Origin: a virus
IMG/VR virus record: IMGVR_UViG_3300043446_002680
Location: 7,950-71,949 of that record
Length of the DNA: 64,000 nucleotides
Direction: 5' to 3' (one strand)
Positions 1-8,123 of this stretch are shown here, piece by piece (the stretch's first letter is position 1; each line of letters starts with the position of its first letter). The translations under genes were made by a program, and so were the position numbers. The notes below the pieces were generated by a model. The model ran no database searches and was not told the origin of the DNA. It saw only the letters and a program-made list of their open reading frames with translations.

Positions 1-2
1 TT

Positions 3-227
3 GGTGTTAATAGTCTTGGACCGACTACTATCACACTTCCCAACAATCCTCCAGATTGTACAGAAATTATTGTAAAGGCTGAAATGGGCCCACCTCTGGG
101 CAACCGCAAAGTAACTGTGGCTGCTCCAGCAGGATCAAATATTGATGGCTCCTCAACCTATGTCATAGAAGTACCATACCAATCGGTAAATGTCTTATCG
201 CGAGGTGGCACATGGCATATTGTTTAA
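3..227 (+). CDS. 5'-truncated virion/fibre-like protein, C-terminus paralogous to 468..1103
   Basis: Frame 3 reads GVNSLGPTTITLPN...IDGSSTYVIEVPYQSVNVLSRGGTWHIV*, aligning with GVNSAAAVTITLPN...IDGKTTYVIGVPYQAVSVVFRAGSWRMI. Confidence 0.8.
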   Translation, partial: GVNSLGPTTITLPNNPPDCTEIIVKAEMGPPLGNRKVTVAAPAGSNIDGSSTYVIEVPYQSVNVLSRGGTWHIV

Positions 228-236
228 GGAGCATGC

Positions 237-455
237 ATGGATTACTATACATATCGTAAATTTTTAGACAGATATCCAGGACGCCCATATGGTCACTATT
301 ATGAGCCATACTATCCTGGTTACTATCCCTATGCGCCGTACCTAGGCATATACGGTAGCCAAATTGGCTACAACAATCAAAGTATCTACAATGCTGGCTG
401 GATGGCCGGAGTAAATCAAATCTCCAATATTAACAATATTGGGCGCCCCTACTAA
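237..455 (+). CDS. Tyr/Gly/Pro-rich small hypothetical protein
   Basis: AAGGAG RBS upstream; packed between neighbours. Confidence 0.7.
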   Translation: MDYYTYRKFLDRYPGRPYGHYYEPYYPGYYPYAPYLGIYGSQIGYNNQSIYNAGWMAGVNQISNINNIGRPY

Positions 456-467
456 CAGGAGAAATAG

Positions 468-1103
468 ATGAGTTACTTAAGTTCAGCCACCAGTAAACTA
501 GACTATGGTGTAGTTCGTGTAGGTGGCAATATAGATGTCACAGTTGATGGCGTAATCAGCGTACCACAAGACCTCAACACCAATAGTTCGGTTACCTTTG
601 CTGATATCAGCGTTACTGGTAATTTGTCTCTTAATGGTGCCAGTGTCGTAACCAGTATTACTCCTGTAGCAGGCAATGCAGGTATCACATTAGGCAATGT
701 AATTACCTCAGGCCCAGCAGCAGGATTTACTATCTATAATACTGGTGTTACCAAGTTAACAGCCGGTGCTGGCATCAGCTTGACCAGCAACACCGGCGAC
801 ATCGTGATCAGCAGTTATGGTGCTGACCTAATCAACGTCTATGGTACTACTACCAGTTACACAGCATCAATCACAGATGAATACATCGGTGTTAATTCAG
901 CCGCAGCGGTGACAATTACACTGCCTAACGGCATAGCCGGTCGTGTTTATACCATCAAAGATGAGTATGGACAAGGATCTGGCAAGATCACCATAAGTCC
1001 GCAGATTGGAGAACTCATAGATGGCAAGACCACTTATGTCATAGGTGTGCCTTATCAAGCAGTGAGTGTGGTATTTCGCGCCGGTTCATGGCGTATGATT
1101 TAA
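468..1103 (+). CDS. Putative virion structural/fibre protein
   Basis: AGGAG RBS; G/T/S/N-rich beta repeats (VTSITPVAG, GVTKLTAGAGISL). Confidence 0.7.
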   Translation: MSYLSSATSKLDYGVVRVGGNIDVTVDGVISVPQDLNTNSSVTFADISVTGNLSLNGASVVTSITPVAGNAGITLGNVITSGPAAGFTIYNTGVTKLTAGAGISLTSNTGDIVISSYGADLINVYGTTTSYTASITDEYIGVNSAAAVTITLPNGIAGRVYTIKDEYGQGSGKITISPQIGELIDGKTTYVIGVPYQAVSVVFRAGSWRMI

Positions 1104-1510
1104 TGGAGCAGGTCATGCAAGCAAACATAACTTATCCCGAACTTGACTATGGTAATTGGCCCAATGTCAGCCCGGCCTGGTGCAATGTCAATGTCGCAGT
1201 GTCTACTACGGCCATGAACAACTATGATGGCGAATACTGGTACTGGTGGCGTCCTGCAGACAATTTCATATTCTGGTACGACACGCCTTTTGCTGAAGAA
1301 CTCATAGATGGCAATCTCTGCTATCGTGTAAATGGCAATATCTGGATTTGCCCTATCAGTCCCGAAGGTAATCTAACACCAGAACCAAGACCCATGCCAG
1401 TGACATCAGGCAATGTAAAACCTATGTTGACTGTGACATCAGTACGAATGGAAAACCACGCCGAGCATGTAGCAGTAATGTTTGGACAAGTCTTAAACAA
1501 CTTGAAATAA
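1088..1510 (+). CDS. Hypothetical protein (start may be the ATG at 1115)
   Basis: Trp-rich ORF continuing the + strand operon. Confidence 0.6.
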   Translation: MAYDLMEQVMQANITYPELDYGNWPNVSPAWCNVNVAVSTTAMNNYDGEYWYWWRPADNFIFWYDTPFAEELIDGNLCYRVNGNIWICPISPEGNLTPEPRPMPVTSGNVKPMLTVTSVRMENHAEHVAVMFGQVLNNLK

Positions 1511-1512
1511 CA

Positions 1513-1586
1513 TGGTTGCGGGTCTAGGAGTCGAACCTAGAACGAGGGCTTATGAGACCTTCATGATACCTTTTCAACAACCCGCG
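1513..1586 (-). tRNA. tRNA-fMet (CAT)
   Basis: Cloverleaf starting CGCGGG, C1:A72 mismatch, loop CT-CAT-AA, encoded CCA. Confidence 0.85.
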
Positions 1587-1794
1587 ATTGTCTGGGTATG
1601 GACCTGAATTCCCTAAAACCCAGGTCCATAGTCTTCTGTGTCTTGGACGACAGTCCTTAGGCTAGACATCCGTACCTTGCAGCGCCAATTGCAAGTGTAT
1701 TTTAGTTGACGGGGCTCCCACCCGCCTCGCTCTGGGAGCACTGCTAACCACTAGGGATTGTGGCAACAAGTGTAGCGGGACTAATTTTTTAGGA

Positions 1795-1893
1795 ATGGCT
1801 GGTCAATGTTTTTGTTACCTGGCACTCTGCTGAATCAGGATTTGCACCTTTCAGGAGCGGATACTCTGAATACCCACCTTTAACAACGACCAT
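1795..1893 (-). ncRNA. Candidate structured ncRNA with long terminal stem and T-loop-like hairpin
   Basis: TGGTCGTTGTT/AACATTGACCA stem enclosing AGG-TGCAAAT-CCT. Confidence 0.4.
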
Positions 1894-1895
1894 CT

Positions 1896-1982
1896 ACCAT
1901 ATTGAAACACACTCATCACACACCGTACAACAGGCGATCAACTCTGTTGTCTTATAGGCATCAAAATGTGCTTCAATATGGT
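1896..1982 (-). ncRNA. Candidate ncRNA with 16-bp closing stem and internal hairpin
   Basis: ACCATATTGAAGCACA/TGTGTTTCAATATGGT; G-U wobble favours minus strand; inner ACAACAG/CTGTTGT. Confidence 0.55.
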
Positions 1983-2054
1983 GCCAGTGTTGCTGGCCGG
2001 GGAATCCCGGTCCTCGTCGCTTAGAGAACGACTACTTACCACCCCGCTCTAAAC

Positions 2055-2128
2055 CATATTAGAACACACTACTCATCTGCTTTGGACAACCGCTGCAATT
2101 TGTCTGTTCGGTAATGTGTTCTAATATG
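2055..2128 (-). ncRNA. Duplicated structured ncRNA, copy 1
   Basis: 18-bp stem around a core near-identical to 5552..5624. Confidence 0.7.
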
Positions 2129-2149
2129 CTCGTTACTTACTATACCCAT

Positions 2150-2178
2150 ATTATAGCAACTATTGTCGCCGCTGTCAA
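2150..2178 (-). promoter_or_regulatory. Sigma70-type promoter
   Basis: TTGACA-17-TATAAT, perfect consensus. Confidence 0.85.
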
Positions 2179-2199
2179 CCTGTTGTATTAGAACTACAG

Positions 2200-2500
2200 T
2201 GTTGGCTACTAGTTCCCACCAGCCCCAACTTGAGTTGTCACCCTGTCCCGGCCCTTTAGTAGAGGTGGCCAGCCTTTGTTGTACCTTTACCAATGATAAC
2301 CCAATATCAACCTCCCGGAATCGCCCGGGAGGGGAGGCCGTATCAACTAGCCTATGCCAAACCTAACGCGGGCATCTACGCCATACTGAGTAACCGGGGT
2401 ATGGCCCGGGGATTCTGTTCAGGGACGCACTGTTGTTGTCGTTTAAGAGCGAGCGGGTCACGCAGCTCTCCCCGGGGGGTTGGGCCCAATCCTGGCCCTG
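2200..2500 (-). ncRNA. GC-rich multi-hairpin non-coding block (one or more ncRNAs)
   Basis: Many inverted repeats (CCTCCCGG/CCGGGAGG, GCCATAC/GTATGGC, CAGGG/CCCTG); no credible ORF. Confidence 0.45.
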
Positions 2501-2504
2501 TATA

Positions 2505-2579
2505 TGGTGCCCGGTGATGGAATCGAACCACCGCTATTCGCCGTGTAAAGGCGACGTTTTACCATTAAACTAACCGGGC
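2505..2579 (-). tRNA. tRNA-Val (TAC)
   Basis: Cloverleaf, TCGCC-TT-TAC-AC-GGCGA, CCA. Confidence 0.95.
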
Positions 2580-2582
2580 TAG

Positions 2583-2659
2583 TGGAAGTAGGGATCGGAT
2601 TCAAACCGATGAAAAGATGCTTTGCAGGCATCCGCATTAGATCACTCTGCCACCCTACT
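2583..2659 (-). tRNA. tRNA-Cys (GCA)
   Basis: GATGC-CT-GCA-AA-GCATC, U73, CCA. Confidence 0.92.
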
Positions 2660-2665
2660 ATGTTT

Positions 2666-2742
2666 TGGCTCCCCAGCGTGGGCACGATCCACGGACCTTC
2701 TGATTAACAGTCAGACGCTACTACCAACTGAGCTACTGGGGA
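2666..2742 (-). tRNA. tRNA-Asn (GTT)
   Basis: TCTGA-CT-GTT-AA-TCAGA, CCA; T-loop ATCGTGC. Confidence 0.92.
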
Positions 2743-2750
2743 ATAAAATT

Positions 2751-2842
2751 TGGTGGAAGGTGTGGGATTCGAACCCACGGTCCATATTACTACAGACAAC
2801 ACCTTAGCAGGGTGCCGATTTAAGCCGCTCATCCAACCTTCC
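2751..2842 (-). tRNA. tRNA-Ser (GCT)
   Basis: Long variable arm, CT-GCT-AA loop, CCA. Confidence 0.92.
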
Positions 2843-2886
2843 AAATTCAACGCTATTATTAAGGAACGATTACTGCTATTTCAATG

Positions 2887-2915
2887 AGTATAGCAACTAA
2901 TCACCTTGTTGTCAA
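2887..2915 (-). promoter_or_regulatory. Sigma70-type promoter internal to the tRNA array
   Basis: TTGACA-17-TATACT. Confidence 0.8.
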
Positions 2916-2922
2916 CTTGATA

Positions 2923-2999
2923 TGGCACCACTGGCAGGATTCAAACCCACGACCCCCGGGTTCGTAGCCCGGTGCTCTATTCAGCTGAGCTACAGTGGT
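2923..2999 (-). tRNA. tRNA-Arg (ACG)
   Basis: CCGGG-CT-ACG-AA-CCCGG, CCA. Confidence 0.93.
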
Positions 3000-3002
3000 A
3001 AT

Positions 3003-3644
3003 CTAGTAGATTAAACGATCTACAAATTCACTTAACAGTGTATGATGATGGTATTCATGCCAGTAAGGCTGCATGTATGGTTTACTGTACCAGTAGATGT
3101 CACTTTCTGGATGTGGGCCTATTAGTCCAATGCGTCCTTGTATGACAGCAGCACTGTCACCATTGGTATACCGAGCAATGACTCGATGCCGACTGCCATG
3201 ATCTACCAAGGCACAGCCATCATAAAAGTACATGTATTCTCTGTGTTTCTGCCAGTCAACGGCGACCACAGTGCCAAAACTGCGTCTGATGTCTGTGTTT
3301 TCTCTGCGTATATACTGCACAGGCTCAATGCCACGCACAATGTCAAAGTAGTGGTGTCCGGCCCAATACGCACCCATGCAGATGCCTAGATAAGCACCGC
3401 CAGTGGCCACATACTCACGCACAGCATCTGCACCTGATTCGCATATTTTATGCCAACTATCACTGTCGCCGATGCCGCCAGGAAAGCACACAAGATCATA
3501 TCTGCTGAGTGCTAGTGATGTCAGCGATCTGCTGTCAATACAGTGTACTGAGTATTCTGCACTAAGTGCTCGAATTAGGCCGTGTGCGCTTTGTACACTG
3601 CATTCAGGATGATGCACAAACACGGCCACTGTGGGCTTGATCAT
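3003..3644 (-). CDS. BPL-N-like class I glutamine amidotransferase-fold protein
   Basis: FPGG, GGAYLGICMGAY nucleophile elbow, GPHPE. Confidence 0.8.
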   Translation of the reverse strand: MIKPTVAVFVHHPECSVQSAHGLIRALSAEYSVHCIDSRSLTSLALSRYDLVCFPGGIGDSDSWHKICESGADAVREYVATGGAYLGICMGAYWAGHHYFDIVRGIEPVQYIRRENTDIRRSFGTVVAVDWQKHREYMYFYDGCALVDHGSRHRVIARYTNGDSAAVIQGRIGLIGPHPESDIYWYSKPYMQPYWHEYHHHTLLSEFVDRLIY

Positions 3645-3665
3645 AGTGATATTTAGTGGTGTTGT

Positions 3666-3741
3666 TGGGGTAACCTATGAGGATTGAACTCATACTTTCT
3701 CGGTCACAACGAGAGGTGCAGACCACTACACTAAGGTCACC
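3666..3741 (-). tRNA. tRNA-His (GTG)
   Basis: G-1/C73, TT-GTG-AC loop, CCA. Confidence 0.92.
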
Positions 3742-3748
3742 ATTGATC

Positions 3749-3823
3749 TGGCACCACCGGAGGGACTCGAACCCCCATAGGACGCTTTAGAAGAGCGTTG
3801 CCTTTCCATTAGACTACGGTGGT
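3749..3823 (-). tRNA. tRNA-Arg (TCT)
   Basis: ACGCT-CT-TCT-AA-AGCGT, CCA. Confidence 0.92.
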
Positions 3824-3830
3824 ACATGTA

Positions 3831-3909
3831 TGGTGCCGCCTCTTGGAATCGAACCAAGTTCTCGAGTTCTTCAGACTCGTGCTGAAATGACCACACTAGC
3901 TCAAGCGGC
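3831..3909 (-). tRNA. tRNA-Phe (GAA)
   Basis: CGAGT-CT-GAA-GA-ACTCG, CCA. Confidence 0.9.
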
Positions 3910-3913
3910 ATTG

Positions 3914-3988
3914 TGGTGCTGATAGCAGGATTTGAACCTGCGGCCTCTGACTTACCAAGTCAGCGATCTTCCCCTGATCTATATCAGC
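3914..3988 (-). tRNA. tRNA-Thr (GGT)
   Basis: CTGAC-TT-GGT-AA-GTCAG, CCA. Confidence 0.93.
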
Positions 3989-3993
3989 ATGGA

Positions 3994-4068
3994 TGGAAGG
4001 GGGTCTGGGTTACGATCCCAGTCACCTACTTTCAAAGAGTAGTATCTGCTCCAATCGATTTACCCCCA
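3994..4068 (-). tRNA. tRNA-Gln (TTG)
   Basis: CTACT-CT-TTG-AA-AGTAG; U1:U72 mismatch; T-loop ATCGTAA; CCA. Confidence 0.8.
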
Positions 4069-4074
4069 ATTGTT

Positions 4075-4150
4075 TGGCCTGACCGGAGGGACTCGACCCC
4101 CGACCCGCTGGGTAGAAGCCAGCTGCTCTAATCCACTGAGCTACGGTCAG
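4075..4150 (-). tRNA. tRNA-Arg (TCT), second divergent copy
   Basis: GCTGG-CT-TCT-AC-CCAGC; T-loop lacks one T; CCA. Confidence 0.8.
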
Positions 4151-4156
4151 ATTGTT

Positions 4157-4232
4157 TGGTACCTGTTCCTGGGTTCGAACCAGGGACCTTTCGATTATCG
4201 GTCGAATGCTCTACCAACTGAGCTAAACAGGC
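4157..4232 (-). tRNA. tRNA-Ile (GAT)
   Basis: TTCGA-CC-GAT-AA-TCGAA, CCA. Confidence 0.93.
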
Positions 4233-4237
4233 ATGGA

Positions 4238-4332
4238 TGGTGGAGAGCGGAGGAGTCGAACCCCATCCCCTTCTTCAGCGGAACCTAGTTTTCAAGACTA
4301 GTCGGCGAACCATCTCGCCTGCATCACTCTCC
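4238..4332 (-). tRNA. tRNA-Ser (TGA) with 8/4 acceptor/T-stem
   Basis: GGAGAGTG/CGCTCTCC 8 bp; GGGG/CCTC 4 bp; CTAGT-CT-TGA-AA-ACTAG; long V-arm. Confidence 0.85.
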
Positions 4333-4337
4333 ATGAG

Positions 4338-4413
4338 TGGTGGTAATGGTAGGACTCGAACCTACGATAGATACCATATGAAGGTACCGCATTGGCCGCT
4401 ATGCTACATTACC
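4338..4413 (-). tRNA. tRNA-Met or Ile2 (CAT)
   Basis: GTACC-TT-CAT-AT-GGTAT, CCA. Confidence 0.88.
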
Positions 4414-4465
4414 AATAAATGGCGTCGGTGGGGGTTCCAAACCGCTCACCGAGATAAATAACTGT

Positions 4466-4972
4466 ATGCTTAAATGTTTACATTGTCAAACTGATCTACT
4501 AAAAAAAGATCAAAAGAAATTCTGTTCTAGGTCATGTGCTGCGTCACATAATAATACCGGCAGGAGACGCCATTCAAAACCAGAATCAATACATTCAATG
4601 GTCAAATTATGTAAGACCTGCGGCAAAGAAACGCCTAGGCGTGTATTTTGCTCTGACAGTTGTAATCCTAAAAAAAATAGGACTCTTTCAGACGAAGAAA
4701 AATTAAAAAAACACAGAGCTAATCACAATGAAGCATGGGCAAGATATATGGCTAAACGAAAAAATCAAACTCCAAAAGATGTTGACATCAAGAAACTTCA
4801 AGAGTTTTATGCTAATTGTCCAAAAGGATACGAAGTTGACCATATAATCCCGATATCTAAAGGTGGGTTACACACATTAGAAAATCTCCAATATCTTACT
4901 GTAAGTGAAAATAGACGGAAGTCTAATAAAATATTGGCTCCGAGTGAGGGACTCGAACCCCCGAGGGTATGA
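4466..4972 (+). CDS. HNH homing endonuclease with N-terminal Cys4 zinc-finger repeats
   Basis: EVDHIIPISKGGLH...NLQYL...N; CxxC/FCSxxC repeats; TAAATA box just upstream; antisense in tRNA array. Confidence 0.9.
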   Translation: MLKCLHCQTDLLKKDQKKFCSRSCAASHNNTGRRRHSKPESIHSMVKLCKTCGKETPRRVFCSDSCNPKKNRTLSDEEKLKKHRANHNEAWARYMAKRKNQTPKDVDIKKLQEFYANCPKGYEVDHIIPISKGGLHTLENLQYLTVSENRRKSNKILAPSEGLEPPRV

Positions 4973-5019
4973 ACCGGCGGTTTTGGAGACCGCTGCAATC
5001 GCCGCTATGCGAACCCGGA
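4935..5019 (-). tRNA. tRNA-Trp (CCA) with long variable arm
   Basis: GCGGT-CT-CCA-AA-ACCGC; 14-nt V-region with GGT/ACC stem; G73; CCA. Confidence 0.85.
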
Positions 5020-5025
5020 ATTGAT

Positions 5026-5100
5026 TGGTGGAGGATAACGGATTCGAACCGATGACTCCGCGGTGCAAACGCGGTGTTTTCCCAATTATACTAATCCCCC
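5026..5100 (-). tRNA. tRNA-Ala (TGC)
   Basis: G3:U70, TT-TGC-AC loop, CCA. Confidence 0.95.
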
Positions 5101-5105
5101 AATCT

Positions 5106-5180
5106 TGGCGGTCTGTACGGGAGTCGAACCCGTCTCTATGGCGTGACAAGCCATTATTCTTACCGATGAACTAACAGACC
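5106..5180 (-). tRNA. tRNA-Asp (GTC)
   Basis: ATGGC-TT-GTC-AC-GCCAT, CCA. Confidence 0.95.
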
Positions 5181-5184
5181 AATA

Positions 5185-5262
5185 TGGTACGGGCACTTGG
5201 ACTCGAACCAAGAACTTACTGGTTAAAAGCCAGTTACTCTAACCAAATTGAGTTATACCCGC
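5185..5262 (-). tRNA. tRNA-Lys (TTT)
   Basis: ACTGG-CT-TTT-AA-CCAGT, CCA. Confidence 0.95.
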
Positions 5263-5270
5263 ATCGTGTT

Positions 5271-5345
5271 TGGCACACCCAACGGGAATCGAACCCGTCT
5301 TTGCGGATTGAAAGTCCACTGTCCTAACCGATAGACGATGGGTGC
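5271..5345 (-). tRNA. tRNA-Glu (TTC)
   Basis: GTGGA-CT-TTC-AA-TCCGC, CCA. Confidence 0.95.
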
Positions 5346-5350
5346 ATAAC

Positions 5351-5427
5351 TGGTGCCGGTTGTCGGATTCGAACTGACGACCTTTGCTTTACAAGAGCAC
5401 TGCTCTGGCCAACTGAGCTAAACCGGC
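5351..5427 (-). tRNA. tRNA-Thr (TGT)
   Basis: CT-TGT-AA loop, cloverleaf, CCA. Confidence 0.92.
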
Positions 5428-5432
5428 TTATT

Positions 5433-5520
5433 TGGTGGGGACTGAAGGAATCGAACCTAACTGCCGCCACTCTGCATATTATGGCAAGTGATTTACAGTC
5501 ACCCGCAGAGAACAGCCCCC
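5433..5520 (-). tRNA. Non-canonical tRNA-Tyr-like gene (GTA) lacking a D-arm
   Basis: 8-bp acceptor, GGTGA-CT-GTA-AA-TCACT, enlarged V-region, AGG-TTCGATT-CCT, ACCA end. Confidence 0.75.
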
Positions 5521-5551
5521 ATATAAGTTTACAGCACTCTAGTGAATGCTG

Positions 5552-5624
5552 GTAATAAAGCAGACTACTCATCTGCTTTGGACTTGCCGCTGCAATTTGT
5601 CTGTTCGGCAGTCTGCTTTATTAC
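5552..5624 (-). ncRNA. Duplicated structured ncRNA, copy 2
   Basis: 17-bp stem of different sequence around the same core as 2055..2128. Confidence 0.7.
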
Positions 5625-5738
5625 TGACAGTTTTTACACATCCGGGTTACCGCCCCAGACTTATCATCCCTGTCACCGCCCACATTATAGCTGATGTTTA
5701 TAGTGCCAGCAGGCTCGCGTTGCCTTACACTTTACCGC

Positions 5739-5780
5739 ACAAAACAAAAGACCCTAGGTCTTTCGATCCTAGGGTCTTGG
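5739..5780 (-). terminator. Intrinsic terminator (attenuator) upstream of the tRNA array
   Basis: AAGACCCTAGG/CCTAGGGTCTT stem, GAAA loop, followed by TTGTTTT. Confidence 0.85.
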
Positions 5781-5831
5781 AAGTGTTGATGTAAATTACT
5801 TTTACATCTGGATCTCCCGAGACCCCGGACC
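5765..5831 (-). promoter_or_regulatory. Putative antiterminator helix
   Basis: GGTCCGGGGTCTCGGGAG (5814-5831) pairs with CTTCCAAGACCCTAGGATC (5765-5783), the whole 5' arm of the terminator. Confidence 0.7.
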
Positions 5832-5930
5832 TTTGTGCTCATTGGTGCGATCATAACTCGACGACTGCCATGAGCACATGGGTGTGCTATGACTAATCTT
5901 TGCTGTTACTGATCCCACTGTTAGTTGCAT
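5802..5930 (-). CDS. 42-aa leader peptide MQLTVGSVTAKISHSTPMCSWQSSSYDRTNEHKGPGSREIQM (not in ORF track)
   Basis: GAGGA RBS 5 nt before ATG; lies between promoter and terminator. Confidence 0.75.
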   Translation of the reverse strand: MQLTVGSVTAKISHSTPMCSWQSSSYDRTNEHKGPGSREIQM

Positions 5931-5969
5931 TACTGTCCTCGTTGTTTAGTGTTTTGCTGCTATGTTCGT

Positions 5970-5998
5970 ATAATACGACTTATTTTACTTGTTGTCAA
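5970..5998 (-). promoter_or_regulatory. Sigma70-type promoter of leader/tRNA array
   Basis: TTGACA-17-TATTAT. Confidence 0.75.
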
Positions 5999-6000
5999 CC

Positions 6001-6036
6001 TGTTGTATTTATACCACGTGTTGTATTTATGCCGCA
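6001..6036. promoter_or_regulatory. Tandem 18-bp operator-like boxes overlapping a T4-type late TATAAATA box (6006-6013, minus)
   Basis: TGTTG-N8-CCACG and TGTTG-N8-CCGCA. Confidence 0.55.
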
Positions 6037-6266
6037 TAATCTGCATACTTAATTCCAAACCAGGTAGCTAGACTTTCTGTGTAGAAAGTAAACCTAGTTT
6101 TTCGCATGCTGATTATTTCCCCAAAAGAAGCCAAGTTCATGTCTAGGCGCTCTGGTGTATAAGCAAAATCAAAATCTTGGCCCTGTACTAGTCCTTGGTC
6201 TTTTAGTTCACGTACGATTTTAAGTATACTATCAACTCTTAGGTCTGTCAATATGATGTCAATCAT
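6027..6266 (-). CDS. Hypothetical protein
   Basis: ORF in tightly coupled operon. Confidence 0.75.
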   Translation of the reverse strand: MIDIILTDLRVDSILKIVRELKDQGLVQGQDFDFAYTPERLDMNLASFGEIISMRKTRFTFYTESLATWFGIKYADYAA

Positions 6267-6409
6267 GTGGTCAAGGGCTCCGGTAATTCATAAGGTACTA
6301 CAATGATCACCGAGTAATGGTTATCGATGATATAGGCTCCAAGTTCCCAGCCCAAGATCACTGCTACAACTACAGTGATGACAAAATACTGTATGTACCA
6401 GGCTCGCAT
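6263..6409 (-). CDS. 48-aa membrane protein (not in ORF track)
   Basis: MRAWYIQYFVITVVVAVILGWELG...; ATGA overlap with the next gene. Confidence 0.6.
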   Translation of the reverse strand: MRAWYIQYFVITVVVAVILGWELGAYIIDNHYSVIIVVPYELPEPLTT

Positions 6410-6414
6410 GGATG

Positions 6415-6648
6415 CTAGTATTCTTTTACCATGTTGATGGTAATCGAGCCCGAGTGCTCTAACACAAACAAGGTAGCATCATGCGGGTCACGAAAATGAA
6501 ACTCCAAGTAGTCCTGTGTGGGATGTGTGAGATATCTATCACCAGGTAAACCAAATACTTCTAGTGCTCTGGCTGTGACTTGATTCCAAGGGGTAGGGCT
6601 GTTGAGATTCCAGCCTACCCTGACCACAGTTAAATTTCTACTTGACAT
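6415..6648 (-). CDS. Hypothetical protein
   Basis: ORF in operon. Confidence 0.7.
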   Translation of the reverse strand: MSSRNLTVVRVGWNLNSPTPWNQVTARALEVFGLPGDRYLTHPTQDYLEFHFRDPHDATLFVLEHSGSITINMVKEY

Positions 6649-7454
6649 GCAGCATCGAACTCCATGTGTTCATAACCTTGATAGCCACGTGGATTGGCTA
6701 TGACACGGCACTCACCAATTCGGTAGTCTTGGCGCTGATGTATATGGCCATGAATCCAAGCACGAATTTGTGGGTTATCCAAGATTACCGGTTCTAGATT
6801 ACTAGCATATCCACCATTCATCAACTTTTCGTGCACATAGTCTCTGTGAATACTTTGGAAACTAGGAGCATGATGTGTGATGACCACAGTAGGCATATCT
6901 CTGTGTTCACGCAACCTATCCTTCAACCAACCCACAGTGGCACGATGTACTCCGCGAGTGATGTTTGGTGTTAACCTATGCCATGCATCTGTAGCTGGAT
7001 TATGATATTTGACCACACGGTAATCATTCATCAGTCCGCGCAGTGCACTAGCAGTGGCAGGATCGTCGCCATTAAGGTCAGTCCATAAGCTGCAACCCAG
7101 AAATCGCACGCCGTCTATGACAACATCATCTAATTCCATGAGTCTTACATTGTCAGGCATGATGGCTCTAAGTCGTTGCTCAGTGCTGAGAAACTCTGCG
7201 TGATAGTGTTCGTGGTTGCCCATGACATATAAGACTTCGCGATATTTGGCACATTCTTCTACGAAGAATCTGCGAGCACGATCTGGACGACCATACTTGG
7301 TGACGTCTGCGCCCAATGTGGTAAAGGCAGGGTCATAGGTCTGCTCGATGTTCCTAACTTCAGCAACATCGCCGGCCAAGACCAGTATATCCCCGCCCGG
7401 CAACTCCAGGTCACCAAACTCGAGATGCAAATCACTCATGTAGCTAATTTTCAT
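6630..7454 (-). CDS. Calcineurin-like metallophosphoesterase
   Basis: SDLH, AGD, GNHE, THHAP, HGHIH motifs. Confidence 0.92.
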   Translation of the reverse strand: MKISYMSDLHLEFGDLELPGGDILVLAGDVAEVRNIEQTYDPAFTTLGADVTKYGRPDRARRFFVEECAKYREVLYVMGNHEHYHAEFLSTEQRLRAIMPDNVRLMELDDVVIDGVRFLGCSLWTDLNGDDPATASALRGLMNDYRVVKYHNPATDAWHRLTPNITRGVHRATVGWLKDRLREHRDMPTVVITHHAPSFQSIHRDYVHEKLMNGGYASNLEPVILDNPQIRAWIHGHIHQRQDYRIGECRVIANPRGYQGYEHMEFDAACQVEI

Positions 7455-7813
7455 TTAATTAACACTCTTTCCTCAACAACTCTATCTGACCATAACCGAT
7501 GTCCACGCACACGAACAACATCTGCGGTATTTTGTGGATATAAGGTCCACTGTTCACGCCAATAGTTTTCTGTCATACCTTGATCACAGATGACCATGTA
7601 AACTTCATAATGCCTATGTCCATTGTATCTGGCACGTAGTAAAATTGCCTGTACAATACTATTAGCAGGATTACGCTGTACTGGCCTATCCCCTAACATA
7701 TTTAACAATTGTAGTTCATCCCAGCCTGCATAGTCAGTAAGATCCACAATGCTTTCAATGCCAAAACTATCCCAACTGAATAAGAATAAACGTTCGTTAT
7801 CTTGTAGTTGCAT
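7451..7813 (-). CDS. Hypothetical protein
   Basis: RBS AAGGTAG; coupled ORF. Confidence 0.75.
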   Translation of the reverse strand: MQLQDNERLFLFSWDSFGIESIVDLTDYAGWDELQLLNMLGDRPVQRNPANSIVQAILLRARYNGHRHYEVYMVICDQGMTENYWREQWTLYPQNTADVVRVRGHRLWSDRVVEERVLIK

Positions 7814-7833
7814 TTGCTACCTTTATAAACAAT

Positions 7834-7858
7834 AAAAGGCTGTACTAGACAGCCTTTT
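7834..7858 (-). terminator. Intrinsic terminator (possibly bidirectional)
   Basis: AAAAGGCTGT/ACAGCCTTTT inverted repeat. Confidence 0.65.
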
Positions 7859-7877
7859 GTACTGCTTACTGCATCAA

Positions 7878-8123
7878 TTAGACAAAACGGCTAGCACGAC
7901 TGCCGGTTACATCACGTGCACTCACGGAGTAAGTCATACGTCCGTCGGAATTGGGTTTGGTGACAACCTTCAAGCCTGCATGACGAAACTCAGTCATACG
8001 TGCACGAATATTCTTGATACCATACAGTGATTCGGCTTGGCGTGCACTCAGGCTACGACCAGTACCACGCAGATAGTTCTCAAGAAAAACGTTTTGGGTT
8101 GAAGAAATTTTAGTAAATGCCAT
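7878..8123 (-). CDS. Small winged-helix DNA-binding protein
   Basis: Basic; LSARQAESLYGIKNIRARMTEFR HTH-like pattern. Confidence 0.65.
   Translation of the reverse strand: MAFTKISSTQNVFLENYLRGTGRSLSARQAESLYGIKNIRARMTEFRHAGLKVVTKPNSDGRMTYSVSARDVTGSRASRFV

What the first reader, a model, noticed from the sequence alone, without database searches (positions are those of the whole stretch)
5739..5998. Candidate all-amino-acid leader-peptide attenuator gating the phage tRNA array
SEEN (minus strand, in order): promoter TTGACA-17-TATTAT (5970-5998); GAGGA RBS; a 42-codon ORF (5802-5930) absent from the ORF track; an intrinsic terminator (5739-5780); then the tRNA array. The first 31 codons encode 19 of the 20 amino acids (only Phe absent) and use varied synonyms (Ser TCA/TCG/AGT/AGC, Gln CAA/CAG, Val GTG/GTA, Thr ACA/ACC). 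Codons 34-39 (GGTCCGGGGTCTCGGGAG) can form about 17 bp with the whole 5' arm of the terminator (CTTCCAAGACCCTAGGATC), so the two structures exclude each other. A GATGTAAA/TTTACATC hairpin over the stop codon nests inside, and a TGTGCTCAT/ATGAGCACA hairpin precedes it. KNOWN: trp/his-type attenuators use this logic but sense one amino acid through codon runs; hosts use anticodon nucleases (PrrC, VapC, AriB) against phages. INFERENCE: a ribosome reaching the stop masks the antiterminator and transcription ends; stalling on any depleted tRNA, or no translation, allows read-through. That would be a general tRNA-damage sensor inducing replacement tRNAs. I know of no description of this, but could not search.
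Basis: partly seen in the sequence, partly recalled or inferred. Interest (0 to 1): 0.95.

Follow-up and report, generated by a model that had tools for sequence, protein, structure and literature searches.

The report
All-amino-acid leader attenuator before phage tRNAs
A large uncultured phage places a tiny gene that spells nearly all 20 amino acids, joined to a switchable transcription stop, in front of its tRNA genes, so it probably makes its own tRNAs mainly when the cell's ribosomes are stalling.

Summary
On the minus strand there is a near-consensus promoter, a Shine-Dalgarno sequence, a 42-codon ORF, an intrinsic terminator and then the tRNA array. The last nine codons can pair over 17 bp with the terminator's 5' arm.

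I collected 38 distinct homologous leaders from about 40 uncultured phage contigs.
- All 38 keep the frame open: 0 in-frame stops, against 1-7 per sequence in the other frames in all but three.
- They keep an ORF-end antiterminator and a terminator (38 of 39 folded).
- They lie upstream of tRNA arrays.
- 24 encode all 20 amino acids, 12 encode 19 and 2 encode 18. The combined p is about 1e-4 to 2e-3 under a conservative null.

The two RNA conformations are nearly iso-energetic. A ribosome-mask model gives read-through while the ribosome sits in roughly the first 30 codons, and termination once it enters the last 11-13.

The TATAAT after the terminator lies inside a conserved structured RNA and is not a conserved promoter.

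Limits: nothing here shows translation or regulation directly. 7 of 21 distant relatives, and this window, have further promoters inside or before the array.

I found no published precedent. This scan has noted the same kind of element on other genomes.

The parts
6001..6031 (-). Two direct copies of (C/T)ATAAATACAACA just upstream of the -35 hexamer; role unknown
   Evidence: 0 and 1 mismatch. Conserved in the close relatives aligned.
5970..5998 (-). Sigma-70-type promoter TTGACA-17-TATTAT
   Evidence: 11 of 12. Both hexamers are invariant in the nine sequences. 18 of 21 distant relatives have an 11-12 of 12 promoter before their leader.
5931..5962 (-). 5' untranslated leader with Shine-Dalgarno GAGGA (5940-5936)
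   Evidence: In alignment A1 the AGG core and the ATG are invariant while the rest of the 5' UTR varies.
5802..5930 (-). Leader ORF, 42 codons plus TAA, encoding 19 of the 20 amino acids (no Phe)
   Evidence: The frame is open in 19 of 19 close and 20 of 20 distant homologues, while the other two frames hold 0-3 and 3-7 stops (close set) or 63 and 78 stops in all (distant set).
5845..5918 (-). Structured 5' domain inside the ORF (codons 5-29): outer helix GAUCA.UAAC / GUUA.UGAUC around an inner hairpin. It is a possible pause or timing hairpin that a translating ribosome must open.
   Evidence: The inner hairpin covaries (GC<->CG and GC<->AU in 7 of 17 sequences).
5814..5831 (-). Antiterminator 5' strand (codons 34-39). 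Its core can instead form a small local hairpin, 5825-5820 with 5815-5810.
5788..5808 (-). Hairpin that carries the stop codon (TAA 5804-5802) in its 5' arm, nested inside the antiterminator
   Evidence: Paired in 100% of cells of A1. A stop-bearing nested hairpin recurs in the distant relatives.
5765..5783 (-). Antiterminator 3' strand: 5' flank plus 5' arm of the terminator
   Evidence: CG<->UA exchange at A1 columns 152:198.
5739..5778 (-). Intrinsic terminator: 11+2 bp stem, GAAA loop, U-rich tail
   Evidence: Three stem pairs changed on both sides in 5 of 17 sequences; 99.5% of cells paired; 0 of 500 shuffles reach the covariation score.
5525..5735 (-). Conserved structured RNA between the terminator and the first tRNA (several covarying hairpins). 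It is the first thing transcribed after read-through, and it holds the TATAAT at 5684-5689.
   Evidence: No Rfam family at E <= 1.
5433..5520 (-). Unusual tRNA-Tyr-like gene (GTA anticodon), first tRNA of the array; missed by ARAGORN and Rfam
   Evidence: It aligns with the tRNA-Tyr of relatives. The same odd form is visible in L031, L055, L056 and L062.
4935..5427 (-). First uninterrupted run of tRNA genes after the leader (Thr, Glu, Lys, Asp, Ala, Trp). The array continues to 1513 and into the 7.9 kb before the window, behind further promoters.

Best explanation
This is a ribosome-dependent (leader-peptide) transcription attenuator at the head of the phage's tRNA array.

Host RNA polymerase starts at the consensus promoter and transcribes a 42-codon ORF. 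The last nine codons, together with a nested hairpin that carries the stop codon, pair with the 5' flank and 5' arm of an intrinsic terminator.

Read-through case: no ribosome has reached about codon 30 when the polymerase makes the terminator. This happens if translation is absent, or if the ribosome is held at any codon whose charged tRNA is short. The antiterminator then forms first. Transcription continues into a conserved structured RNA and the tRNA genes.

Termination case: the ribosome runs smoothly into the last 11-13 codons. It opens or blocks the antiterminator, the terminator forms and transcription ends.

The sensing part of the ORF spells (nearly) all 20 amino acids, and the phage encodes tRNAs for all 20. 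The device would therefore act as a supply-on-demand gauge of overall decoding capacity.

Shown: the anatomy, its conservation, the alternative pairing, the maintained reading frame and the amino-acid completeness.

Inferred: translation of the ORF, the direction of the switch, and the physiological trigger.
For: (1) Anatomy in the window.

(2) Relatives. 19 distinct leaders came from contigs that share the upstream gene or the downstream block. 22 more loci were found with a distant leader peptide.

(3) Coding constraint.
- 0 in-frame stops in 19 of 19 and 20 of 20 ORFs, against 0-3 and 3-7 per sequence in the other frames of the close set, and 63 and 78 in total in the distant set.
- Lengths of 43-51 codons differ only by in-frame indels.
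- Up to 56 of 126 nt differ within the 42-codon family without a stop. Random substitution keeps the frame open in only 8-31% of trials.
- The SD core and the ATG are the invariant points of the 5' UTR.

(4) Switch.
- In transcripts cut before the terminator's 3' arm, the MFE pairs the ORF's 3' end with the terminator's 5' arm in 19 of 19 and 19 of 20 leaders. The one miss was my script picking the wrong T run.
- Antiterminator domain: dG -23 to -36 kcal/mol and z about -4 to -7 in the 15 of 19 leaders where the script isolated it.
- The antiterminated and terminated conformations differ by -6.0 to +5.4 kcal/mol, and by less than 2 in 12 of 19.
- Pairing is kept with different letters, read: GGGUCU/AGACCC, GGGUCC/GGACCC, GGGUUC/GAACCC, GAGGUCC/GGACCUC, GGGUCUAGUCU/AGACUAGACCC.

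(5) Ribosome-mask folding. The antiterminator is predicted for P-site codons 1-29 in the window and is lost for the last 11-13 codons in 20 of 20 leaders.

(6) Amino-acid completeness.
- Of 38 distinct leaders, 24 encode all 20 amino acids, 12 encode 19 and 2 encode 18. Null means are about 17-18.
- Fisher over 13 sequence groups, conditional on conserved columns: p = 1e-4 (median member) or 2e-3 (worst member).
- Neutral substitution would pull diversity back to about 17.

(7) Cargo.
- tRNA arrays follow the leader in every close relative with enough sequence and in 18 of 21 distant loci.
- This phage, a complete 364-kb genome (G001) and G003 each encode tRNAs for all 20 amino acids behind the leader.

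(8) The TATAAT after the terminator is not conserved in distant relatives, and the block around it forms covarying hairpins. That RNA must therefore be transcribed from upstream.
Against: - No direct evidence of translation, of stalling, or of regulated termination.
- The RNA-library data are assembled contigs only. Three of them cross the terminator. That could be read-through or DNA carry-over, and it shows no transcript ends.
- The window's own amino-acid count is unremarkable alone (P = 0.10).
- The combined statistic rests on treating 13 sequence groups as independent and on a uniform-codon null.
- Completeness is not strict. The window's leader lacks Phe although the array has tRNA-Phe. 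L034 lacks Cys although it has tRNA-Cys.
- In several leaders one to four amino acids occur only in the last codons, outside the modelled sensing window.
- Much of the conserved peptide core (His; Ser-Asn-Asp-Arg) coincides with the two strands of an RNA helix, so the peptide pattern is partly an RNA constraint.
- Fixed-column covariation of the antiterminator's outer helix in A1 is only modest: 17 and 37 of 500 shuffles reach the observed values.
- Gating is partial: consensus promoters lie inside the window's array, and 7 of 21 distant loci have a promoter-like site between leader and first tRNA.
- In 16 of 21 distant loci a 51-58-aa ORF sits between the terminator and the tRNAs, so tRNAs are not the only cargo.
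- With the ribosome at the stop codon, the antiterminator's core strand lies just 5' of the expected footprint. Termination then depends on steric or helix-weakening arguments that I could not test.
Confidence: 0.65

Rival explanations
1. It is a ribosome-dependent attenuator, but it reports only whether translation is running at all (a timing or host-shutoff signal). The all-20 composition would then be a by-product of a balanced, structured RNA and shared ancestry, not a selected feature.
For: - Any 42-codon ORF already samples about 17 amino acids.
- Single-sequence P values are only 0.02-0.4.
- Some leaders miss 1-2 amino acids whose tRNAs the phage encodes.
- Part of the conserved peptide is explained by RNA helices.
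Against: - 24 of 38 leaders encode all 20 amino acids and none encodes fewer than 18. This holds across groups that differ at most variable positions (combined p 1e-4 to 2e-3).
- The sequence-unrelated 31-codon leader of L042 still has 19 (P = 0.007).
- Simulated neutral change returns diversity to about 17.
Confidence: 0.15
2. The unit is a self-contained small gene or small RNA. Promoter to terminator would make a stable ~230-nt structured RNA and/or a 42-aa peptide that acts in trans. The terminator simply ends it, and read-through is incidental.
For: - Strong own promoter and terminator, and a very stable fold (z = -7.0).
- Conserved peptide core (S-N-D-R-T-P-E-I in 22 of 22 distant loci), with the few nucleotide changes seen there falling on third codon positions (my reading).
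- Attenuator leaders with trans functions are in print: the peTrpL/rnTrpL papers appeared in the listing. I saw only the listing and the starts of the abstracts.
Against: - It does not explain why an ORF-end strand complementary to the terminator's 5' arm is rebuilt with different letters in three sequence families.
- It does not explain why the stop codon always lies inside that domain.
- It does not explain why the two conformations are balanced.
- It does not explain why the unit is always at the head of a tRNA array.
- The peptide matches no Pfam family at E <= 0.1; only two leader peptides were scanned, and only against Pfam.
Confidence: 0.1
3. It is a conditional terminator set by something other than the ribosome. 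A protein, a tRNA or a small molecule would bind the structured 5' domain, riboswitch- or T-box-like, and the open frame would be tolerated rather than used.
For: - The 5' domain (5918-5845) is conserved and covaries.
- The conserved nucleotides of the core could be a binding site.
Against: - No Rfam riboswitch, T-box or leader family matches at E <= 1.
- The 5' domain does not overlap the antiterminator strand.
- This reading leaves several things unexplained: the open frame, in-frame indels only, the conserved SD/ATG or a promoter placed 6-7 nt before the ATG, and the amino-acid completeness.
Confidence: 0.07

Closest known systems
Leader-peptide attenuators of amino-acid biosynthetic operons (trpL, hisL, leuL, pheL; multivalent thrL and ilvL). 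From established knowledge; one pheL paper (PMC3082878) seen in the listing.
   Same: Promoter-proximal short ORF with a ribosome-binding site; an intrinsic terminator before the regulated genes; a mutually exclusive antiterminator that forms when the ribosome lags; an antiterminator weaker than or equal to the terminator but made first.
   Different: - No run of one regulatory codon: the ORF spells 18-20 different amino acids.
- The cargo is RNA genes (a structured RNA and tRNAs) on a phage, not biosynthetic enzymes.
- The antiterminator's 5' strand lies inside the ORF's last nine codons.
- The untranslated default is predicted to be read-through, not super-attenuation.
- No Rfam leader family matches.
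Ribosome-mediated attenuators that sense translation inhibitors (for example the vmlR and msrD leaders). PMC9226507 and bioRxiv 10.1101/2021.11.29.470318: listing and abstract starts only.
   Same: A uORF plus a terminator/antiterminator turns a general problem of the ribosome into transcription of a rescue factor for translation.
   Different: By established knowledge, those respond to drug-dependent arrest at specific peptide contexts and control ABC-F or similar proteins. Here there is no known arrest motif, and the cargo is a full tRNA set.
The silent long tRNA array (trn operon) of Anabaena sp. PCC 7120, induced by translational stress. PMC8421152: passages read. PMC10272220: abstract read.
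   Same: The physiological logic is the same: an accessory, near-complete tRNA array is kept low and switched on when translation is impaired.
   Different: Regulation there is at initiation. Direct repeats over the -10 box and start site are bound by the repressor TrcR. The main text of PMC8421152 contains no occurrence of 'attenuat', 'leader' or 'terminator'. That array is cellular, not phage-borne.
T-box riboswitches (established knowledge)
   Same: Terminator/antiterminator control that reads the state of tRNA.
   Different: T-boxes bind uncharged tRNA directly, need no ORF, and control aminoacyl-tRNA synthetase and related genes. There is no T-box match here.
Earlier notes of this scan: 'leader-peptide attenuators gating phage tRNA arrays' on other genomes (e1-5618024, e1-5381190, e1-6032651 and others). 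These are AI notes that I did not check.
   Same: A tiny ORF plus a switchable terminator before phage tRNA blocks. The ORF's amino acids are said to mirror the block's tRNAs.
   Different: Those notes describe several leaders, each matched to a partial block. Here one leader with (nearly) all 20 amino acids heads an array that covers all 20.

Membership tests
Ribosome-dependent (leader-peptide) transcription attenuators | Short ORF with translation start signals directly behind a promoter | tested here: met
   - TTGACA-17-TATTAT, GAGGA 5 nt before the ATG, 42 codons.
- The SD core and ATG are invariant in A1.
- 18 of 21 distant loci have an 11-12 of 12 promoter before the ORF.
Ribosome-dependent (leader-peptide) transcription attenuators | Intrinsic terminator between the ORF and the regulated genes | tested here: met
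   13-bp stem, GAAA loop and U tract. The stem covaries, and 0 of 500 shuffles reach its score. Present in 19 of 19 and 20 of 20 folded relatives (L059's read by eye, the script having picked the wrong T run there).
Ribosome-dependent (leader-peptide) transcription attenuators | Antiterminator mutually exclusive with the terminator and placed so that ribosome position decides between them | tested here: met
   - 17-bp helix 5831-5814 with 5783-5765.
- Predicted in 38 of 39 truncated leaders.
- ddG between the two states is -6.0 to +5.4 kcal/mol.
- Mask model.
This is prediction only.
Ribosome-dependent (leader-peptide) transcription attenuators | Regulatory codons: a run or enrichment of codons for the end-product amino acid | tested here: not met
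   There is no run. Instead the leaders spell 18-20 different amino acids. This is the feature that makes it a variant.
Ribosome-dependent (leader-peptide) transcription attenuators | Read-through depends on translation of the leader and on the supply of charged tRNA | not testable with these tools
   The only RNA data were Logan contigs from RNA libraries, which show no transcript ends or expression levels.
Rfam leader, riboswitch and T-box families | Match to a curated covariance model | tested here: not met
   cmscan of window 1-8000 at E <= 1 found nothing in 5739-5998 except a 31-nt chance-level match (E 0.14) on the terminator.
TrcR-type repression of tRNA arrays (Anabaena trn operon) | [quoted passage not shown] | tested here: not met
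   The only direct repeat here (6001-6031) lies upstream of the -35 hexamer. The criterion comes from PMC8421152 (passages).

The most novel reading that the evidence does not exclude
A widespread family of large aquatic phages carries a 'decoding gauge'. It is one leader ORF, kept by selection to contain every amino acid, that turns a stall at any codon into transcription of a complete replacement tRNA set and an associated structured RNA. The stall could come from starvation, from decay of host tRNA after shutoff, or from cleavage by anticodon-nuclease defences. The gauge switches itself off again once decoding recovers. That would be a general, self-correcting counter-measure to tRNA-targeting immunity, built from attenuation logic that so far is known only for single amino acids.
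Probability: 0.45. Interest if true: 0.9.

Novelty: new variant of a known kind. Interest (0 to 1): 0.82.

Why it matters
Phage tRNA genes are usually discussed as codon-usage helpers or as decoys against tRNA-cleaving defences. How their expression is controlled is largely unknown.

If this reading holds, it has four consequences.
- Phages regulate a whole tRNA set by measuring the ribosome's progress.
- It extends leader-peptide attenuation from 'one amino acid, one pathway' to 'all amino acids, the decoding machinery itself'.
- It gives a compact natural sensor of global translation status, about 230 nt long and probably portable because its promoter and terminator are of the sigma-70 and intrinsic types.
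- It makes a testable prediction for phage-defence biology: anticodon nucleases should induce the very tRNAs that replace their targets.

The conserved structured RNA and the small ORF that share the regulated transcript are further unknowns tied to the same control.

Tried and rejected
- Named phage genomes. blastn of 5400-6300 found only two short matches, at the query's 3' end where the first ARAGORN-called tRNA begins, and no relative of the leader.
- The exact 31-nt terminator pattern found nothing in viral contigs.
- The 32-nt pattern from the invariant block found only the eight contigs already in hand.
- L026, a metagenome hit to the 22-mer anchor, lies inside a long ORF with no tRNA. 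I dropped it as a chance match.
- RNA evidence. Four RNA-library runs were laid, and all are assembled contigs.
  - X15 and X16 (identical rows, possibly one data set) cover 5722-6014.
  - X17 covers 5712-5902.
  - Both cross the terminator without mismatches.
  - They show no starts, ends, strand or level, and DNA carry-over cannot be excluded. I use them neither for nor against.
- Promoter in the block after the terminator. I first took the invariant 50 nt with TATAAT (5684-5689) for a promoter. It has no -35 hexamer (not listed).
  - In distant relatives the TATAAT is absent, while the flanking hairpins covary.
  - I rejected it as a conserved promoter. A weak local promoter in the window's own clade is not excluded.
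- A T4-late-like TATAAATA reading of the repeat at 6001-6031: the motif count in the window is not above chance (7 found, 13 of 100 shuffles reach that).
- Fixed-column covariation of the antiterminator in A1 is weak, because the inner helix shifts register between clades. I relied instead on per-sequence folding.
- RNAalifold's consensus added a long-range helix between ORF columns 54-60 and the U tract. I do not trust that helix.
- Strict 'roster matching' fails at the level of single losses. The window's leader lacks Phe and L034's lacks Cys, yet those tRNAs are encoded.
- Codon-level match to the phage's anticodons was checked by eye only and is uninformative, because the phage tRNAs cover most codon boxes.
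- Pfam (two leader peptides and five copies of the small downstream ORF) and PHROGs (the five downstream ORFs only) gave nothing above threshold.
- The protein search with the peptide alignment returned only 5 clusters; gene callers rarely call these ORFs.
- Rows dropped before the count: L056 (a natural deletion fuses the ORF to the terminator's 3' arm; 52 aa, all 20 amino acids), L057 and L063 (cut by contig ends), P0005 (protein only, 19 amino acids) and L026.
- L008 and L009 give the same peptide but differ in DNA, and both were counted.
- Supplementary files of the papers were not opened. The 5'-RACE supplement of PMC8421152 might refine the comparison.
Full report
**What is there.** The window is part of a 71.9-kb IMG/VR virus record estimated at 21% complete, so it comes from a large phage. 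It encodes ribonucleotide reductase, DnaB-like and other helicases and a tail fibre.

On the minus strand the finding's features are all present.
- A TTGACA-17-TATTAT promoter at 5998-5970 (11 of 12).
- GAGGA 5 nt before an ATG.
- A 42-codon ORF at 5930-5802.
- An intrinsic terminator with an 11+2-bp stem, a GAAA loop and a U-rich tail ending near 5739.
- Then about 210 nt of non-coding sequence, and then tRNA genes.

ARAGORN finds 20 tRNAs in the window and 5 more in the 7.9 kb before it.

I read two more tRNA genes by eye. One is a tRNA-Tyr-like gene at 5433-5520, which aligns with the tRNA-Tyr of relatives. The other is a long-arm tRNA with a UGA anticodon at 4241-4333. Together the phage covers all 20 amino acids.

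**The RNA.** The leader folds far better than shuffled controls: -80.2 kcal/mol, z = -7.0. In the full-length window sequence the MFE shows the terminator, a small hairpin just before it, a hairpin over the stop codon and a large 5' domain inside the ORF.

When the transcript is cut before the terminator's 3' arm, codons 34-39 pair with the terminator's 5' flank and arm as 5+7+5 bp, with the stop-codon hairpin nested inside. That is the state at the moment of decision.

**Relatives, first set.** The 79-aa gene upstream (6027-6266) led to 15 viral contigs, 8 of which carry the leader.

A 22-mer from the invariant block after the terminator found 22 metagenome contigs. One of them (L026) is a chance hit inside a gene.

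That gave 19 distinct leaders: 17 of 42 codons in three clades that differ at up to 56 of 126 nt, one of 51 codons (L035), and one of 31-32 codons with no obvious sequence similarity (L042).

Their ORFs are 43-60 codons and share the core S-N-D-R-T-P-E-I and a Trp about 8-11 residues before it.

**Is the ORF a real reading frame?**
- The frame has 0 stops in 19 of 19 and 20 of 20 leaders. The other frames hold 0-3 and 3-7 stops per sequence in the first set, and 63 and 78 in total in the second.
- Lengths from 43 to 51 codons differ only by in-frame indels.
- Random substitution at the observed number of sites keeps the frame open in only 8-31% of trials per deep split.
- In alignment A1 the invariant points of the 5' UTR are the AGG of the Shine-Dalgarno sequence and the ATG.
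- In about half of the distant loci the -10 hexamer ends 6-7 nt before the ATG. This suggests leaderless mRNAs whose first codon is the start.

Amino-acid changes are mostly non-synonymous and often follow compensatory changes in RNA helices. So the peptide as such is weakly constrained, as expected of a leader peptide.

The conserved His and Ser-Asn-Asp-Arg coincide with the two strands of the outer helix of the 5' domain.

**Is the terminator conditional?**
- In truncated transcripts the ORF's 3' end pairs with the terminator's 5' arm in 19 of 19 and 19 of 20 leaders. The miss, L059, was my script choosing the wrong T run. By eye its strands are complementary over 9 bp.
- The domain has dG -23 to -36 kcal/mol and z about -4 to -7 in the 15 of 19 leaders where my script isolated it.
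- With everything free, the antiterminated and terminated conformations of the 3' domain differ by -6.0 to +5.4 kcal/mol, and by less than 2 in 12 of 19.
- The terminator stem covaries strongly: three pairs changed on both sides in 5 of 17 sequences, and 0 of 500 shuffles reach the score.
- For the antiterminator, fixed-column counts are modest: 88.6% of cells paired against 26-54% when slid, and 17 and 37 of 500 shuffles reach the observed values. The inner helix shifts register between clades.
- The stronger argument is that the same arrangement is rebuilt with different letters in different lineages, always with the stop codon inside the nested hairpin or at its base.

**Which way does it switch?** I masked the ribosome's footprint and folded only the RNA ahead of it.
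- The antiterminator is predicted for P-site codons 1-29 in the window, and up to 11-13 codons before the stop in all 20 leaders tested. It is lost for the last codons.
- One leader (L036) also loses it for codons 2-13.

So no ribosome, or a ribosome held early, gives read-through. A ribosome that runs to the end gives termination. It remains a model: with the ribosome on the stop codon, the core of the 5' strand lies just outside the expected footprint.

**The amino-acid claim.**
- Alone, the window is not remarkable: 19 of 20 in 42 codons, P = 0.10.
- Across the family the pattern is clear. Of 38 distinct leaders, 24 encode all 20 amino acids, 12 encode 19 and 2 encode 18.
- Expected means are 16.7-17.9 unconditionally, and about 18 once the amino acids fixed by conserved columns are granted.
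- Neutral substitution between clades would bring a complete leader back to about 17.
- Treating 13 sequence groups as independent and conditioning on conserved columns, Fisher's method gives p = 1e-4 with the median member of each group and 2e-3 with the worst.
- Within the modelled sensing window the counts are 16-19.

Against a strict design:
- single amino acids are missing here and there although their tRNAs are encoded;
- Val or Gly, Ile and Gln often occur only in the last codons.

**What is regulated?**
- Every close relative with enough sequence has a tRNA array after the leader, and so do 18 of 21 distant loci. Two of the three exceptions have under 250 nt of downstream sequence.
- In L003 the 15 tRNAs from Tyr to Arg(acg) have no consensus promoter other than the leader's own.
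- In a complete 364-kb genome (G001) 28 tRNAs for all 20 amino acids follow the leader. G003's array also covers all 20.
- Between the terminator and the first tRNA lies a conserved structured RNA. Its first hairpins covary even in distant relatives, and the window's TATAAT falls in a linker that is not conserved there. So this RNA is most simply transcribed by read-through.
- In 16 of 21 distant loci a 51-58-aa ORF of no known family sits in front of that RNA.
- Control is not exclusive. Consensus promoters lie inside the window's array, and 7 of 21 distant loci have a promoter-like site between leader and first tRNA.

**What is known?**
- Eight full-text searches were for leader peptides or attenuators at phage or cellular tRNA genes, all-amino-acid leaders, the expression of viral tRNAs, and ribosome-mediated attenuation. 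None found a description of such an element.
- The library lacks most subscription journals, so this is not proof of absence.
- The nearest functional parallel is the Anabaena trn operon. It is silent and is induced by translational stress, but it is controlled at the promoter by the repressor TrcR (PMC8421152, passages; PMC10272220, abstract).
- This scan has noted leader-peptide attenuators before phage tRNA blocks on other genomes. Those are unchecked AI notes. One gave me the lead to the Anabaena papers and the idea of comparing leader content with array content.
- I tested that idea only to the extent that complete leaders go with complete arrays in three genomes.

**Verdict.**
- I put 0.65 on a ribosome-dependent attenuator whose all-amino-acid leader lets any decoding shortage raise transcription of the tRNA array.
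- The remainder is split between a generic translation sensor, a self-contained small gene or RNA, and a non-ribosomal switch.
- It is a new variant of a known mechanism, widespread in large aquatic phages, and directly testable.

Noticed in passing
window 5525-5735 (minus strand): A conserved non-coding RNA of roughly 210 nt lies between the terminator and the first tRNA.
- It begins with a 50-nt block that is invariant in close relatives.
- Then come a hairpin with conserved internal loops (GAUGAGAAG / GUAAAA), a long hairpin with a conserved closing stem and variable cargo, and a short hairpin.
- The stems covary even in distant phages.
- No Rfam family matches at E <= 1.
   Followed up: partly
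window 5433-5520 (minus strand); also L031, L055, L056, L062: A tRNA-Tyr-like gene (GTA anticodon, long variable region, aberrant D region) sits where relatives have a normal tRNA-Tyr. ARAGORN and Rfam both miss it. The same odd form recurs in distant relatives, so it is probably functional rather than decayed.
   Followed up: partly
window 4241-4333 (minus strand): A 93-nt long-arm tRNA with a UGA anticodon (Ser, read by eye). ARAGORN does not call it, and Rfam scores it as tRNA-Sec below threshold (41.6 against 47 bits).
   Followed up: partly
L049-L052, L055, L057, L058, L060-L062, L064-L069, about 70-90 nt after the leader's stop: A conserved 51-58-aa ORF (motif H-T-L-T-x-E-Q ... L-I ... 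K-x-E-R-A) lies between the attenuator and the structured RNA in 16 of 21 distant loci. It is absent from the window's clade. Pfam and PHROGs give no family.
   Followed up: partly
L056 733-1205, L058 820-1215, L061 536-1024, L068 770-1215 (also L071 16606-17051): ARAGORN calls permuted tmRNA genes a few hundred bases upstream of the leader in four distant relatives. In those phages tmRNA, the leader and the tRNA array form one translation-related region. No tmRNA was found in the window.
   Followed up: no
L058-L060, L064, L066-L069: The consensus -10 hexamer ends 6-7 nt before the leader's ATG. These leaders would be leaderless mRNAs, while the other relatives have a UTR of about 30-50 nt with a Shine-Dalgarno sequence.
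   Followed up: partly
L003, L005, L007 (about 80 nt upstream of the leader ORF): A tandem duplication of the promoter and the first 20 nt of the transcript gives two consensus promoters in series before the leader.
   Followed up: no
L056 1501-1659: A natural deletion joins the antiterminator's 5' strand directly to the terminator's 3' arm and U tract. The stop codon, the nested hairpin and the terminator's 5' arm are removed, and the ORF runs on to 52 codons. It is a ready-made attenuator-less variant for comparison.
   Followed up: no
window 6001-6031 (minus strand): Two direct copies of (C/T)ATAAATACAACA lie just upstream of the -35 hexamer and are conserved in close relatives. The motif is not enriched elsewhere in the window.
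   Followed up: partly
window 4466-4972 (plus strand): An HNH endonuclease gene on the opposite strand interrupts the array. Its 3' end overlaps tRNA-Trp (4935-5019). A consensus promoter (4489-4461, minus strand) restarts the array behind it. Relatives such as L003 have an uninterrupted array here.
   Followed up: no
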